Origin: the human T2T-CHM13v2.0 reference genome, Homo sapiens
Reading direction: 5' to 3' (one strand)
NCBI RefSeq assembly: GCF_009914755.1
Contig: NC_060930.1
Length of the DNA stretch: 64,000 nt
The first letter of the stretch is position 1, and each line of letters begins with the position of its first letter. This document shows positions 28,163 to 54,852 of the stretch, in pieces. The position numbers and the translations under genes are program-made. The notes under the pieces were generated by a model, which did no database searches, was not told the DNA's origin, and saw only the letters and a program-made list of their open reading frames with translations.

Positions 28163-29794
28163 ATGGGGGACTGGAACTTATTGGGTGGCATCCTAGAGGA
28201 AGTTCACTCCCACTCAACCATAGTGGGGAAAATCTGGCTGACCATCCTCTTCATCTTCCGAATGCTGGTACTTCGTGTGGCTGCTGAGGATGTCTGGGAT
28301 GATGAACAGTCAGCATTTGCCTGCAACACCCGGCAGCCAGGTTGCAACAATATCTGTTATGATGATGCATTCCCTATCTCTTTGATCAGGTTCTGGGTTT
28401 TACAGATCATCTTTGTGTCTTCTCCTTCTTTGGTCTATATGGGCCATGCACTTTATAGGCTCAGGGCCTTTGAGAAAGACAGGCAGAGGAAAAAGTCACA
28501 CCTTAGAGCCCAGATGGAGAATCCAGATCTTGACTTGGAGGAGCAGCAAAGAATAGATAGGGAACTGAGGAGGTTAGAGGAGCAGAAGAGGATCCATAAA
28601 GTCCCTCTGAAAGGATGTCTGCTGCGTACTTATGTCTTACACATCTTGACCAGATCTGTGCTGGAAGTAGGATTCATGATAGGCCAATATATTCTCTATG
28701 GGTTTCAAATGCACCCCCTTTACAAATGCACTCAACCTCCTTGCCCCAATGCGGTGGATTGCTTTGTATCCAGGCCCACTGAGAAGACAATTTTCATGCT
28801 TTTTATGCACAGCATTGCAGCCATTTCCTTGTTACTCAATATACTGGAAATATTTCATCTAGGCATCAGAAAAATTATGAGGACACTTTATAAGAAATCC
28901 AGCAGTGAGGGCATTGAGGATGAAACAGGCCCTCCATTCCATTTGAAGAAATATTCTGTGGCCCAGCAGTGTATGATTTGCTCTTCATTGCCTGAAAGAA
29001 TCTCTCCACTTCAAGCTAACAATCAACAGCAAGTCATTCGAGTTAATGTGCCAAAGTCTAAAACCATGTGGCAAATCCCACAGCCAAGGCAACTTGAAGT
29101 AGACCCTTCCAATGGGAAAAAGGACTGGTCTGAGAAGGATCAGCATAGCGGACAGCTCCATGTTCACAGCCCGTGTCCCTGGGCTGGCAGTGCTGGAAAT
29201 CAGCACCTGGGACAGCAATCAGACCATTCCTCATTTGGCCTGCAGAATACAATGTCTCAGTCCTGGCTAGGTACAACTACGGCTCCTAGAAACTGTCCAT
29301 CCTTTGCAGTAGGAACCTGGGAGCAGTCCCAGGACCCAGAACCCTCAGGTGAGCCTCTCACAGATCTTCATAGTCACTGCAGAGACAGTGAAGGCAGCAT
29401 GAGAGAGAGTGGGGTCTGGATAGACAGATCTCGCCCAGGCAGTCGCAAGGCCAGCTTTCTGTCCAGATTGTTGTCTGAAAAGCGACATCTGCACAGTGAC
29501 TCAGGAAGCTCTGGTTCTCGGAATAGCTCCTGCTTGGATTTTCCTCACTGGGAAAACAGCCCCTCACCTCTGCCTTCAGTCACTGGGCACAGAACATCAA
29601 TGGTAAGACAGGCAGCCCTACCGATCATGGAACTATCACAAGAGCTGTTCCATTCTGGATGCTTTCTTTTTCCTTTCTTTCTTCCTGGGGTGTGTATGTA
29701 TGTTTGTGTTGACAGAGAGGCAGATGGAGGGGGAGATTATTTATGGAGAGATAAAATTATTCATTCGATACATTCAGTTAAATTCAATTCATAA
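28163..29794 (+). CDS. GJA10: Gap junction alpha-10 protein (connexin 62), unspliced 543-aa ORF
   Basis: MGDWNLLGGILEEVHSHSTIVGKIWLTILFIFR N-terminus; extracellular cysteine motifs CNTRQPGCNNIC and CTQPPCPNAVDC; SRPTEKTIF; four TM segments. Splice acceptor tttcAG ends at 28146, 16 nt before the ATG. Confidence 0.97.
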   Translation: MGDWNLLGGILEEVHSHSTIVGKIWLTILFIFRMLVLRVAAEDVWDDEQSAFACNTRQPGCNNICYDDAFPISLIRFWVLQIIFVSSPSLVYMGHALYRLRAFEKDRQRKKSHLRAQMENPDLDLEEQQRIDRELRRLEEQKRIHKVPLKGCLLRTYVLHILTRSVLEVGFMIGQYILYGFQMHPLYKCTQPPCPNAVDCFVSRPTEKTIFMLFMHSIAAISLLLNILEIFHLGIRKIMRTLYKKSSSEGIEDETGPPFHLKKYSVAQQCMICSSLPERISPLQANNQQQVIRVNVPKSKTMWQIPQPRQLEVDPSNGKKDWSEKDQHSGQLHVHSPCPWAGSAGNQHLGQQSDHSSFGLQNTMSQSWLGTTTAPRNCPSFAVGTWEQSQDPEPSGEPLTDLHSHCRDSEGSMRESGVWIDRSRPGSRKASFLSRLLSEKRHLHSDSGSSGSRNSSCLDFPHWENSPSPLPSVTGHRTSMVRQAALPIMELSQELFHSGCFLFPFFLPGVCMYVCVDREADGGGDYLWRDKIIHSIHSVKFNS

Positions 29795-30943
29795 AATAGA
29801 CTTAGAAAAAACTTATTATATCAATCGCTCTTATAAGTGCTGGGCATGTAAATGGGTAAAATACAGTCTCTGACATCAAAGGACTCAGGATGTAGGAGTA
29901 AAATTTAGGCAGGTAAAATGTAAATATATCAAGTGTAAGGCGTCACGTTAGTGGGAATGAGTGAGCAAAGGAGGGAGTGATCATATGGATGGGTCAGGAA
30001 AAGTTCATAGTTGAAGTTACCTTGAGCTGAATCTTGAAAGATGTGGCAAGTTTTTCCAAAACCGGAAGGACTGGGGCACATGAAAGAAGCTGTCCTGGTA
30101 GAGGGAGCAGTGCAGGTAAAGCCTAAGAGTGAGACATAGCAGTGCTGTCTGAGGAGCTGTGTGTGGCTGGAGCACAGGGTGGTAGGAGGGTGCAGAGGGA
30201 GGGAAGGCTGGAGAAGTGGGCATGGAGGCCCTGTAGGGAAGCCATAGAGAACTGACGGAGGATGTGGAGCAGAGGAGGGACTGGATCAGAGTTGCAGTTT
30301 AGAAAATCCTTCTGTCACAGTGTGGAAAACAGTCCAGAGGAGGGATCATTTGTAACTTGAGTTGCCCTCATCTCACTAAAAAAGGAGTGTGTACTTCATT
30401 CTTTTAATACTTTTGACATTTCAAAGTCATATACAAATATTTGGTGATATATTTTACAAAGACAAGAATCAATATTGTATGATTTTAATTTTGTTCTCTG
30501 AAAAATCACTGTGGGATTAAACATTTCTTACCCATTATAAACATGAAATGGATATTTACTGTGGATTCTTCTCAATTCTGGAACAAAGGACGACACTTGA
30601 TTACTCACTGCTCCCAATAGTCAACTGTTTCCATTAAAAAGAAAATTCCCCCAAGGTTGGTGGGAGAGCTTCTGAGTTGAGCTCACCTGCTTGTTTCTTC
30701 CTTTGTTCCACTTTTTGTGTTGATAATTACTGAATCCCTCTACCCTAGTTTTACATCTCCTGTGGGTTTAGATACTGATGTTACTGTACTACAGACATAC
30801 CATGAATTCAAATCAACCTACTTGGATTTTTACTAAAATACTTCTCTCAAACTGATATTCATTTCTTGTCAGTGACCAGCCATTTATTTAGGAGACTGTT
30901 TAGGATCAATGCATGGGTGCTTAGAAACCTATGCCAAACTAGA

Positions 30944-52250: not shown

Positions 52251-54813
52251 GCCTATTGTTTGTTTTTTAAAATATAAATGTGACCATACTCTGGAAATGT
52301 CTCTGCAGTTTGCTCTTGCTCACTTAATGATCTATCTCAAGCATCTTTGTCAGTCCCTATAGAGTTGCCTTGGTGTTTATCTCAGCTCGTACTTTTCCAT
52401 GGTATGATGAACCATAGATATCTGATGGCCATTTAGGCTGTTTCTTTTTTTCCTACTACAATGTTGCATTTAATGTTTCCTGCATGTATCTTTGATAGGT
52501 ACCTAGAAATGGAGTTGTTGGTTTTAATGGACATGCACACTTTTTTGTGTGTGTGTTTTGTGTGTGTGTGTATTTTTGAGACAGAGTCTTACTCTCTCAC
52601 CCAGGCTGGAGTGCAATGGCACGATCTTGGCTCACTGCAACCTCTGCCTCCTGGGTTGAAGTGATTCTTCTGCCTCAGACTCCTGAGTAGATGGGATTAC
52701 AGGCATGCACCACCATACCCGGCTGATTTTTGTATTTTCAGTAGAGGTGGGGTTTCTCCATGTTGGCCAGGCTGGTCTCAAACTCCTGACCTCAAGTGAT
52801 CCCCCCACCTTGGCCTCCCAAAGTGCTTGGATTACAGGCATGAACCATTGTGCCCAGCTCATTTTGGTTTTTTTTTTTTAGAGGCATGGTCTTGCTCTGT
52901 CGCCCAAGCTGGAGTGCAGTGGTGCAATCATAGTTCACTGTAGTCTCGACTTCCTGGGCCCAAGCTGTCCTCTCACTTTGGTCTCCCAAAGCACTGGGAA
53001 TACAGGCATGAGCCACCAGACCTGGCTACATTTCGTTTTGATACATGCTGCCAATTTTTGCTCAGGAAGGGCTATTCCAACTAACCTCTCACCAGCATAG
53101 CACCCATTTTCTCATACTCTTGCCAACAGCAGACATTATCTTACTCCCTTCCCCATCTGATGAACTAAAAATATTTCTCTTTGTTTTATTTTACATTTCT
53201 GTGATTACTACTAAGGTCGTTCATATGTTTATTGGCTATCTGTATTTCTACCATGAATTGTCATTGTTTATTTTTCTGTTGGGATATTTATTGTTCTTCT
53301 GATTTCTAGGAGCTCTTGTATGGTATTATATTAACCTCTTGTCTATATAGACATTGAAAGATCTTTTTTCCCAGTCTGCTTGTCTTTTTTCCCTGTTTAT
53401 GACATCTTTAAACTTGTAATTTTATATTTAGTATGAAAAATCTCTTTGCCTTCTAGGTTCTTTGTCTCGTTTGGGAAGGTATTTTTCAACTCAACATTAT
53501 TATTTATTTTACTTTAATTTTTTTAGAGATAGGATCTCACTCTGTCCCCCAGGCTGGAGTGCAGTGGCCTCATTCACTGCAGCTTTGAACTCCAGGGCTC
53601 AAACGATCCTCCTGCCTCGGCCTTCCAAAGTTCTGGGATTACAGGCATGAGCCACTGTGCCCAGCCCAACTCAACATTATTAACAAGGATTATGAGGTGG
53701 ATATTTGGAGGGTGGATTGTTATAATTTATTGAACCTTTTGGCTGAGAAGTTTTACACAATTTAACAATTACCAAAGAATGTGAAGAAGATGAGGAAGGA
53801 CACCACTTTATTGAGGGCTGGATCATAGTCTGGACACACTGTGGACTTCCTCTCTGTAGCCACGTGCTAATTTCCATTTTACAGATAAGGAAATAGGTGA
53901 CTTGCGGCCAGGCACGGAGGCTCACGCATGTAATCCCTGCACTTTGGGAGGCCGAAGCGGGCGGATCACGATGTCAACAGATCAAGACCATCCTGGCCAA
54001 CATGGTGAAACCCCGTCTCTACTAAAAATACAAAACTTAGCTGGGTGTGGTGGTGCGCGCCTGTAGTCCCAGCTACTCCGGAGGTTGAGGCAGGAGAATC
54101 ACTTGAACCCGGGAGGCGGAGGTTGCAGCGAGCCGAGATCACGCCACTATACTCCAGCCTAGCGACTGAGCGAGACTCCGTCTCAAAAAAAAAAAAAAAA
54201 ATGGTGACTTGTCCTAAGTCACACAATTAGGTTGTGTGAAACACAGTCCTTGGGACAAAGCAGGGGATGAATTAATATTTATTGGATGAGCAAGTGAGCT
54301 GGAATTGGACCCTCAGCGTCTGACTCAACCCAAGCTCCTGTTCCTACACCCATGGCTGCCCCTTGCTCTCCCGGCACATGGCCTCCTGAGTTTAGCATAT
54401 TTTTAGCATCAGAGATAGACTGTTATAAAATAGACAATTCTGTATTTGAATTAGTTTTCGCTTTCCATATTATGTAAAGTCAAAAAAATCCGGCTAATTT
54501 TCAGGGGACTAAGATGAAGCTTAGGAACAAATTGACTTTTTAGTTTTAGGCCTGAATTTTTGCACAAAACAACAAAAACCACAACAGGCAGAGGAGGCAG
54601 CAGGAAGGATCCAGAGTTTTCACTGTAATGCTATTGAGCACCACCTCTTACATGGACGTTCACCTGTGGGGAAACACAGGGACAGCTGCCGTCTGCAGCA
54701 GCTCTTTGATCCCCAGGATTTTTGACATATATAGAATCCCAGGTGGGTGGGTAGGGCTGACTCTTACAAGTTGTTTGAGTCTGTTTTGTTTTTTGGTTTC
54801 CTATCTCTTTCAG

Positions 54814-54852
54814 AACATGCTTCTAGAACTTTCATCTATTATGAAAAAATAA
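54814..54852 (+). CDS. GJA10: GJA10 distal coding exon NMLLELSSIMKK* (spliced 492-aa isoform)
   Basis: Long polypyrimidine tract + CAG (54811-54813); phase 0 matches donor ATG|GTAAGA at 29602/29603. Peptide matches my recall of the spliced mouse Cx57 C-terminus. Confidence 0.85.
   Translation, partial: NMLLELSSIMKK

What the first reader, a model, noticed from the sequence alone, without database searches (positions are those of the whole stretch)
29600..54852. Hidden distal exon gives GJA10 a different C-terminus (492 aa) across a 25.2-kb intron
Seen: codon 480 (ATG 29600-29602) is followed by a strong donor GTAAGA. At 54814, behind a long pyrimidine tract and CAG, an in-phase exon reads NMLLELSSIMKK-TAA, followed by a ~600-nt UTR with tandem poly(A) signals. 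Known (from recall): mouse Cx57/Gja10 retinal mRNA places its last ~12 codons, ending ..LLELSSIMKK, on a third exon. Inference: the physiological human protein in retinal horizontal cells is this 492-aa form rather than the 543-aa 'Cx62'. An ORF finder cannot see it. It may already exist as a minor annotated transcript.
Basis: partly seen in the sequence, partly recalled or inferred. Interest (0 to 1): 0.8.

Follow-up and report, generated by a model that had tools for sequence, protein, structure and literature searches.

The report
GJA10 terminal micro-exon, already published
The hidden last exon of the human gap-junction gene GJA10 is real and very old, but it was described with retina RT-PCR in 2010, so what remains is a gap in the reference annotation, not a discovery.

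Summary
Codon 480 (ATG 29600-29602) is followed by GTAAGA. A pyrimidine tract and CAG end at 54813. 54814-54852 reads NMLLELSSIMKK-TAA, with AATAAA and ATTAAA about 570 nt further on.

Söhl et al. 2010 (PMC2984586) report the same 480 + 12 aa structure, the same peptide and a ~25-kb intron, with intron-spanning RT-PCR from human retina. Their read-through amplicon vanished after DNase treatment. Their primers map onto this exon, and the predicted spliced amplicon of 1102 nt fits their ~1.1 kb.

Added here:
- 18 of 50 mammalian GJA10 models end in the peptide, 15 of them exactly.
- 24 read-through models start with Val (the GT donor) and have tails of 2-63 aa.
- 88 of 120 non-mammalian relatives, including chimaera, shark and coelacanth, end in the same peptide or a close variant.
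- It is the most conserved part of the cytoplasmic tail: 0.85 identity to human against 0.34 and 0.27.

RefSeq still lists only the 543-aa form. The 3' end and the isoform used outside the retina remain untested. Verdict: real, already known, low interest.

The parts
28147..28162 (+). Probable 5' UTR start of the main coding exon; an acceptor-like tttcag ends at 28146
   Evidence: ttttctgtatatttcag|ACATTAGTCTTTAACC then ATG. Motif only; use not tested. Söhl 2010 calls the main coding exon 'exon 2'.
28163..29602 (+). GJA10 codons 1-480, common to both forms; connexin domain at residues 3-234
   Evidence: translation. Pfam PF00029 Connexin, E 7.4e-96; mammalian GJA10 orthologues 62-92% identical over residues 300-480.
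29603..29608 (+). Splice donor GTAAGA directly after codon 480 (phase 0)
   Evidence: score 8.85, matched or beaten by 28 of 3521 GT sites; 24 of 28 mammalian models without the peptide begin with Val here, so GT is kept. Söhl 2010 names this donor.
29603..29794 (+). 63 read-through codons plus TAA, annotated as CDS in NM_032602.2; most likely intron sequence
   Evidence: no Pfam family; orthologous read-through tails are 2-63 aa long; the amplicon reaching here failed after DNase treatment.
29603..54813 (+). Intron of 25,211 nt
   Evidence: Coordinates. Söhl 2010 gives 'about 25 kb'.
54780..54813 (+). Pyrimidine tract and CAG acceptor
   Evidence: pyrimidine fraction 0.85 over -23..-4; one of 16 comparable sites among 1160 YAG.
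54814..54852 (+). Terminal coding exon part: 12 codons NMLLELSSIMKK plus TAA
   Evidence: orthologue C-termini; published primer hCx62 DSP3 maps to 54826-54852 (-) with 0 mismatches.
54853..55455 (+). Putative 3' UTR up to the first poly(A) signal pair (AATAAA 55421-55426, ATTAAA 55433-55438)
   Evidence: motifs only. The real 3' end is not established. Further AATAAA at 56011 and 57051. Söhl 2010 mentions a faint 6.5-kb Northern signal.

Best explanation
Human GJA10 (Cx62) follows the ancestral vertebrate GJA10 gene plan. One large exon encodes residues 1-480. A GT donor sits directly after codon 480. A small terminal exon 25.2 kb downstream supplies the last 12 residues (NMLLELSSIMKK), the stop codon and the 3' UTR. 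The retinal protein is therefore 492 aa.

The 543-aa 'Cx62' of RefSeq comes from reading the ORF on into the intron. This was published in 2010, so the finding re-derives known biology and exposes an annotation that was never updated.

Shown here or in print: the sequence features, the deep conservation of the peptide, and the published RT-PCR. Inferred: that the 492-aa form is the main or only physiological form, that the poly(A) site near 55450 is used, and what the peptide does. I guess a docking or trafficking motif next to a conserved basic-x-Ser site at the junction; this was not tested.
For: 1. Sequence anatomy is exactly as described.

2. Söhl et al. 2010 (PMC2984586) give the same peptide and a ~25-kb intron. 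The intron-spanning product was obtained from human retina cDNA, also after DNase treatment. The read-through product (USP1-DSP2) was lost after DNase.

3. Their primers map here: DSP3 at 54826-54852 (-), USP2 at 28540-28561 (+), DSP2 at 29768-29791 (-, 1 mismatch). Splicing 29602^54814 predicts a USP2-DSP3 amplicon of 1102 nt, against the reported ~1.1 kb. The other strong donor, at 29349, would give 848 nt and is in phase 1.

4. Mammals: of 50 GJA10 cluster representatives, 18 end in the peptide, 15 exactly and 3 with one change.

5. Other vertebrates: of 120 listed relatives of the axolotl protein, 88 end in it or a close variant: 72 SMILELSSIMKK, 13 SMLLELSSIMKK, 2 NVLLELSSIMKK and 1 SMLLELSSIMKR. 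They include Callorhinchus, Heptranchias, Latimeria, gar, bowfin and teleost cx52.6/gja10b.

6. Mean identity to human. Non-mammals: last 12 aa 0.85, preceding 40 aa 0.34, residues 301-440 0.27. Mammals: 0.99, 0.74 and 0.70.

7. Read-through tails are not kept as an ORF. There are 24 Val-initiated tails of 2 to 63 aa, and the human tail matches no Pfam family.

8. Antibody tables in two papers list immunogens carrying this C-terminal peptide for carp Cx53.8 and mouse Cx57 (passages only). This indicates the end is treated as the protein's C-terminus in fish and mouse.

9. Shen et al. 2013 restate the 480 + 12 aa structure of exon 2 and exon 3 (passage).
Against: - No RNA data could be examined here. 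The junction rests on one 40-cycle RT-PCR study whose reverse primer lies wholly inside the 39-nt coding part of the exon. The text I read reports amplicon sizes for human and does not print the human junction sequence.
- 28 of 50 mammalian representatives do not carry the peptide, including the human one (P0001, 543 aa). Of these, 24 are read-through models. A further 4 could not be placed.
- Orthologue models are mostly automatic predictions that may be guided by the mouse protein. They show the peptide is encoded downstream, not that it is spliced in each species.
- The first ~25 read-through codons are alignable in one frame in primates, two rodents, rabbit and a fruit bat, so some constraint on that stretch is not excluded.
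- Söhl's faint 6.5-kb Northern signal does not fit an mRNA of about 2.1 kb ending near 55450.
- Platelet Cx62 work does not say which isoform is present: 'splic' occurs 0 times in PMC12358790.
Confidence: 0.9

Rival explanations
1. Both ends are used. The 543-aa read-through protein is a genuine isoform made by intron retention with proximal polyadenylation in some tissue, for example megakaryocytes and platelets, where Cx62 protein is reported. The 492-aa form would then be the retinal one.
For: - RefSeq carries the 543-aa form (hub table).
- Söhl 2010 first saw the unspliced amplicon before DNase treatment.
- The first ~25 read-through codons keep one frame across primates, beaver, marmot, rabbit and Pteropus.
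- ATTAAA motifs lie at 30516, 30633 and 31025, and AATAAA at 31416, downstream of the read-through stop.
- Platelet papers detect Cx62 by antibody without addressing isoforms (passages).
Against: - The unspliced amplicon disappeared after DNase treatment.
- Tails differ in length from 2 to 63 aa, even within primates: 63, 47, 39, 55 and 2 aa in P0001-P0004 and P0009.
- The tail matches no family.
- The RefSeq exon ends 20 nt after the stop with no poly(A) signal nearby; the nearest is about 720 nt away.
Confidence: 0.12
2. The downstream 12-codon frame is a chance ORF behind a chance acceptor and is not part of GJA10.
For: The splice motifs alone are not distinctive: 16 of 1160 YAG sites downstream have an equally good pyrimidine tract, and most of these are followed by short open frames.
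Against: - The peptide is identical or near-identical in 18 of 50 mammalian and 88 of 120 non-mammalian GJA10 models, back to cartilaginous fish.
- The core LLELSS occurs only once in the six frames of the window.
- Published RT-PCR used a primer lying in this exon.
Confidence: 0.01

Closest known systems
Human GJA10/Cx62 exon 2-exon 3 transcript of Söhl, Joussen, Kociok and Willecke, BMC Ophthalmol 2010;10:27 (PMC2984586)
   Same: The same thing: 1440 nt / 480 aa, then 36 nt / 12 aa [NMLLELSSIMKK], an intron of about 25 kb, and the same donor. The reverse primer maps to 54826-54852.
   Different: Nothing in substance.
Mouse Gja10/Cx57 (Hombach et al. 2004, Eur J Neurosci 19:2633; known here only through Söhl 2010's text, paper not held)
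   Same: 480 aa on the large exon and the last 12 aa on a downstream exon. Söhl 2010 states the 12 residues are the same. Expressed in horizontal cells.
   Different: The intron is much shorter in mouse. Söhl 2010 gives 'approx. 9 kb' in one place and '4 kb' in another, against 25.2 kb in human. The mouse read-through tail was predicted as 25 aa, against 63 aa in human.
Fish horizontal-cell connexins (carp Cx53.8; teleost cx52.6/gja10b)
   Same: They end in SMILELSSIMKK, 10 of 12 residues identical to human. That peptide is listed as an antibody immunogen (antibody tables only).
   Different: The cytoplasmic tail upstream is only about 0.3 identical to human. Whether the fish peptide lies on a separate exon was not examined here.
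RefSeq NM_032602.2 (543-aa Cx62)
   Same: Residues 1-480 are identical.
   Different: It reads 63 codons into the intron. It lacks the terminal exon and any UTR exon, since the model starts at the ATG (hub table).

Membership tests
Connexin (Pfam PF00029) | N-terminal connexin domain above the curated score cut-off | tested here: met
   PF00029, 320.7 bits (cut-off 31.3), E 7.4e-96, residues 3-234 against profile positions 1-224 of 225.
GJA10 orthologue group (Cx57/Cx62/cx52.6) | GJA10-specific cytoplasmic tail, best matched by proteins named gap junction alpha-10 | tested here: met
   residues 300-480 hit 50 proteins. The named ones are GJA10 of mammals at 45-92% identity.
GJA10 two-coding-exon gene plan | GT donor directly after the ...SM codon that ends the large exon | tested here: met
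   ATG|GTAAGA; 24 of 28 mammalian models without the peptide start with Val (GTN) at this point.
GJA10 two-coding-exon gene plan | Downstream exon encoding the 12-residue C-terminus x[MV]xLELSSxMKK followed by a stop | tested here: met
   (54814-54852); 18 of 50 mammals; 88 of 120 other vertebrates.
GJA10 two-coding-exon gene plan | The junction is actually used in human retinal mRNA | not testable with these tools
   No RNA data available. Published RT-PCR supports it, and primer mapping with the amplicon size agrees.
GJA10 two-coding-exon gene plan | Acceptor and exon conserved at the DNA level in other mammals | not testable with these tools
   The genome collections on hand are prokaryotic, viral or E. 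coli. Only protein models could be compared.
Functional poly(A) site near 55450 | Hexamer 10-30 nt upstream of a mapped cleavage site | tested here: inconclusive
   AATAAA at 55421 and ATTAAA at 55433 are present, with a T-rich stretch downstream. There are no 3'-end data, and a faint 6.5-kb Northern signal in Söhl 2010 may mean a longer UTR.

The most novel reading that the evidence does not exclude
The terminal micro-exon encodes a discrete, still uncharacterised interaction or trafficking motif (...LELSSIMKK-COOH). It is nearly invariant from cartilaginous fish to humans while the rest of the tail drifts, and it would be needed to place Cx62/Cx57 channels correctly in horizontal cells. The 543-aa reference protein lacks it. 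Constructs, antibodies and variant calls built on that form, including work outside the retina, would then describe a non-physiological protein.
Probability: 0.3. Interest if true: 0.45.

Novelty: already known. Interest (0 to 1): 0.12.

Why it matters
The biology is settled in print: human in 2010, mouse in 2004. The practical point is that the reference annotation given for this window still shows only the 543-aa read-through protein.

- Anyone using that model assigns 63 intronic codons as coding and misses the 12 real ones 25 kb away. This affects variant interpretation, antibody and construct design, and proteomics databases. No RefSeq exon covers 54814-54852 (hub table), so a variant there would be classed as non-coding.
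- GJA10 drives horizontal-cell coupling. Its mouse promoter is used to target horizontal cells in a vision-restoration study (PMC9021237, passages).
- Cx62 is also studied in platelets (PMC12358790, passages).

The survey here shows the 12-residue end is the most conserved part of the tail across jawed vertebrates. That makes its unknown function worth a direct test.

Tried and rejected
- Splice-signal statistics as evidence. The donor ranks among 28 of 3521 GT sites and the acceptor is one of 16 of 1160 YAG sites. This is too weak alone, and the donor matrix used frequencies I recalled, so it is only a rough rank.
- Alternative donor at 29349, which scores higher than 29603 and is probably Söhl's 'second putative donor'. 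Rejected: it is in phase 1, and the predicted amplicon of 848 nt does not fit the reported 1.1 kb.
- Hypothetical exon about 33 kb downstream. Söhl's primer DSP4 maps to 62888-62914 (-), and they obtained no product.
- Hombach 2004 is not held, so the mouse data are second-hand.
- Nucleotide conservation of the acceptor and exon in other mammals could not be tested. No vertebrate genome DNA is reachable with these tools, so protein models were used instead.
- Search for 'LELSSIMKK' anywhere in full text. It found 3 papers: Söhl 2010 and two antibody tables. Within the held library I found no functional study of the peptide.
- Searches for later treatment of the human isoform question found nothing beyond Söhl 2010 and the restatement by Shen 2013.
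- I did not submit the spliced 492-aa protein to any tool, so no search or fold of the joined form was made.
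Full report
**1. The observation**

- The GJA10 ORF starts at 28163 and runs 543 codons to TAA at 29792-29794.
- Codon 480 is ATG at 29600-29602, and the next six bases are GTAAGA.
- At 54780-54813 there is a pyrimidine-rich run ending in CAG.
- 54814-54849 translates in phase as NMLLELSSIMKK, followed by TAA at 54850-54852.
- The intron would be 25,211 nt.
- AATAAA (55421) and ATTAAA (55433) lie about 570-580 nt after the stop.

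**2. Is it more than chance?**

Not on splice signals alone.
- With a rough donor matrix, whose frequencies I recalled and which is therefore only a ranking aid, 28 of 3521 + strand GT sites in the window score at least as well. Within the annotated CDS it is second of 70, behind a site at 29349.
- Among 1160 YAG sites downstream of the donor, 16 (this acceptor included) have an equal or better pyrimidine tract without an AG in the last 15 nt. Most are followed by short open frames.

The peptide singles the site out. LLELSS occurs once in all six frames of the window, and the peptide matches the C-terminus of GJA10 proteins elsewhere (section 4).

**3. It is already published**

A full-text search led to Söhl, Joussen, Kociok and Willecke, BMC Ophthalmol 2010;10:27 (PMC2984586). 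I read the abstract and sections 8, 12, 13 and 15.
- The results give 1440 nt / 480 aa plus 36 nt / 12 aa, print the peptide [NMLLELSSIMKK], and describe the donor that leaves '63 amino acid residues' untranslated.
- The intron-spanning product appeared only in retina cDNA and persisted after DNase I treatment.
- The product covering the extended exon 2 failed after DNase I treatment. The uninterrupted 543-aa reading frame 'could not be confirmed'.
- The mouse precedent is their reference 30 (Hombach et al. 2004). That paper is not held, so I know it only from this text.
- Shen et al. 2013 (PMC3715546, passages only) restate the 480 + 12 aa structure of exon 2 and exon 3 as background.

**4. 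Tying the paper to these coordinates**

The published primers map uniquely in the window.
- hCx62 DSP3: 54826-54852 (-), 0 mismatches.
- USP2: 28540-28561 (+).
- DSP2: 29768-29791 (-), 1 mismatch.
- DSP4: 62888-62914 (-).

Predicted and reported amplicon sizes agree (against the Figure 3 legend).
- Splicing 29602^54814 predicts a USP2-DSP3 product of 1102 nt, against 'about 1.1 kb' reported.
- USP2-DSP2 unspliced is 1252 nt, against 'about 1.3 kb' reported.
- The stronger donor-like site at 29349 would give 848 nt and is in phase 1, so it is not the one used.

One caveat applies. The reverse primer lies wholly within the 39 coding nucleotides of the exon, and the text I read gives sizes, not the human junction sequence.

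*Mammals.* I searched residues 300-480 of the window's protein against the large protein collection. This gave 50 proteins, and the named ones are mammalian GJA10.
- 18 of the 50 end in the peptide: 15 exactly, and 3 with one change (I to V, M to T, I to L). They include horse, tree shrew, hippopotamus, porpoise, cats, dog, camel, cattle, kangaroo rat, sand rat, gundi, porcupine and an elephant shrew.
- 28 have another end.
  - 24 of these begin with Val, that is, they read through a conserved GT. Their tails are 2, 6, 8, 8, 8, 11, 11, 12, 20, 20, 23, 26, 26, 26, 39, 42, 44, 46, 47, 48, 48, 53, 56 and 63 aa.
  - The human representative (P0001, 543 aa) is one of the 24.
- 4 could not be placed.

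*Other vertebrates.* A search of the 50%-identity representative library listed 150 proteins, 147 of them not already seen. Three of these 147 end in SM[IL]LELSSIMKK. One proved to be an axolotl GJA10. Its relatives (120 listed) include 88 that end in the peptide or a close variant:
- 72 SMILELSSIMKK
- 13 SMLLELSSIMKK
- 2 NVLLELSSIMKK
- 1 SMLLELSSIMKR

Among them are Callorhinchus milii, Heptranchias perlo, Latimeria, gar, bowfin, paddlefish, eel and many teleosts (cx52.6/gja10b). The other 32 end differently. Many frogs end in ...PLYRLLV, and some reptiles are read-through models.

*Mean identity to human.*

| Set | Last 12 aa | Preceding 40 aa | Residues 301-440 |
|---|---|---|---|
| Mammals | 0.99 | 0.74 | 0.70 |
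| Non-mammals | 0.85 | 0.34 | 0.27 |

The micro-exon is thus the best conserved piece of the cytoplasmic tail.

These models are largely automatic and may be guided by known proteins. They prove that the peptide is encoded at the locus, not that it is spliced in each species.

**6. Protein-level hints**

Antibody tables in two papers list immunogens with this C-terminal peptide. One is for carp Cx53.8 (PMC4816530). The other is for mouse Cx57 (PMC11613193, citing Janssen-Bienhold 2009). I saw only those table passages.

**7. Mechanism**

- Shown: a connexin domain at residues 3-234 (Pfam PF00029, E 7.4e-96), a long divergent tail, a conserved donor and a conserved terminal peptide.
- Published: use of the junction in human retina.
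- Inferred: the 492-aa protein is the physiological retinal form, and the 63-aa tail (no Pfam match) is intron.
- Not known: what the 12 residues do. It is not the ...DLxI end seen in the neighbouring connexin representatives (P0056-P0058). A docking or trafficking role next to the conserved R-x-S site at the junction is my guess only.

**8. Open points**

- The 3' end near 55450 rests on motifs only. Söhl's legend mentions a faint 6.5-kb signal, and further AATAAA motifs lie at 56011 and 57051.
- The first ~25 read-through codons keep one frame in primates, beaver, marmot, rabbit and Pteropus. Constraint on the start of the intron, or a minor retained-intron isoform, is therefore not excluded.
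- Platelet Cx62 work (PMC12358790, passages; 'splic' 0 occurrences) does not address the isoform.
- No RNA-seq, no vertebrate genome DNA and no supplements were examined.

**9. Verdict**

Novelty is nil, since the human structure was published in 2010 and the mouse one in 2004. The residual value is an annotation correction, because RefSeq lists one transcript of 543 aa (hub table), together with the note that the peptide is conserved across jawed vertebrates.

Noticed in passing
window 28130-28162: An acceptor-like site (ttttctgtatatttcag|ACATT) ends at 28146, 16 nt upstream of the GJA10 ATG. The RefSeq model starts at the ATG, so a non-coding 5' exon is probably missing from the annotation as well.
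   Followed up: no
window 29346-29354: A donor-like GT at 29349 inside the CDS scores higher than the real donor (11.0 against 8.85). It is in phase 1 and would give an 848-nt amplicon, not the 1.1 kb reported. It probably corresponds to the 'second putative splice-donor site' of Söhl 2010.
   Followed up: yes
window 29603-29700 (start of the intron): Read-through tails of primates, beaver, marmot, rabbit and Pteropus share a stretch (..ELSQE..HS..) in one frame for about 25 codons before diverging. Carnivore models stop after 8 codons. The intron start seems alignable across placentals but is not kept as an ORF. A splicing-regulatory role is possible.
   Followed up: partly
window 62888-62914 (-): Primer DSP4 of Söhl 2010, for a hypothetical exon about 33 kb downstream, maps here, inside the annotated last exon of BACH2 on the opposite strand. 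The paper obtained no product with it.
   Followed up: yes
proteins P0204-P0228 and P0259: Many frog GJA10 models end in ...PLYRLLV rather than the conserved peptide. One Polypterus isoform ends in ...RRAPSDLTI, like the ...DLxI ends of neighbouring connexins. Alternative terminal exons may exist in other vertebrates.
   Followed up: no
protein P0020 (Molossus molossus): The tail of this echolocating bat's GJA10 model is out of frame with the other mammals. This fits the reported loss of Gja10 in echolocating bats (Shen 2013, title and abstract listing, passages).
   Followed up: no
PMC2984586, sections 12 and 15: The paper gives the mouse exon 2-exon 3 distance as 'approx. 9 kb' in the results and '4 kb' in the conclusion. 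It also mentions a faint 6.5-kb Northern signal, which does not fit a ~2.1-kb mRNA ending at 55450.
   Followed up: no
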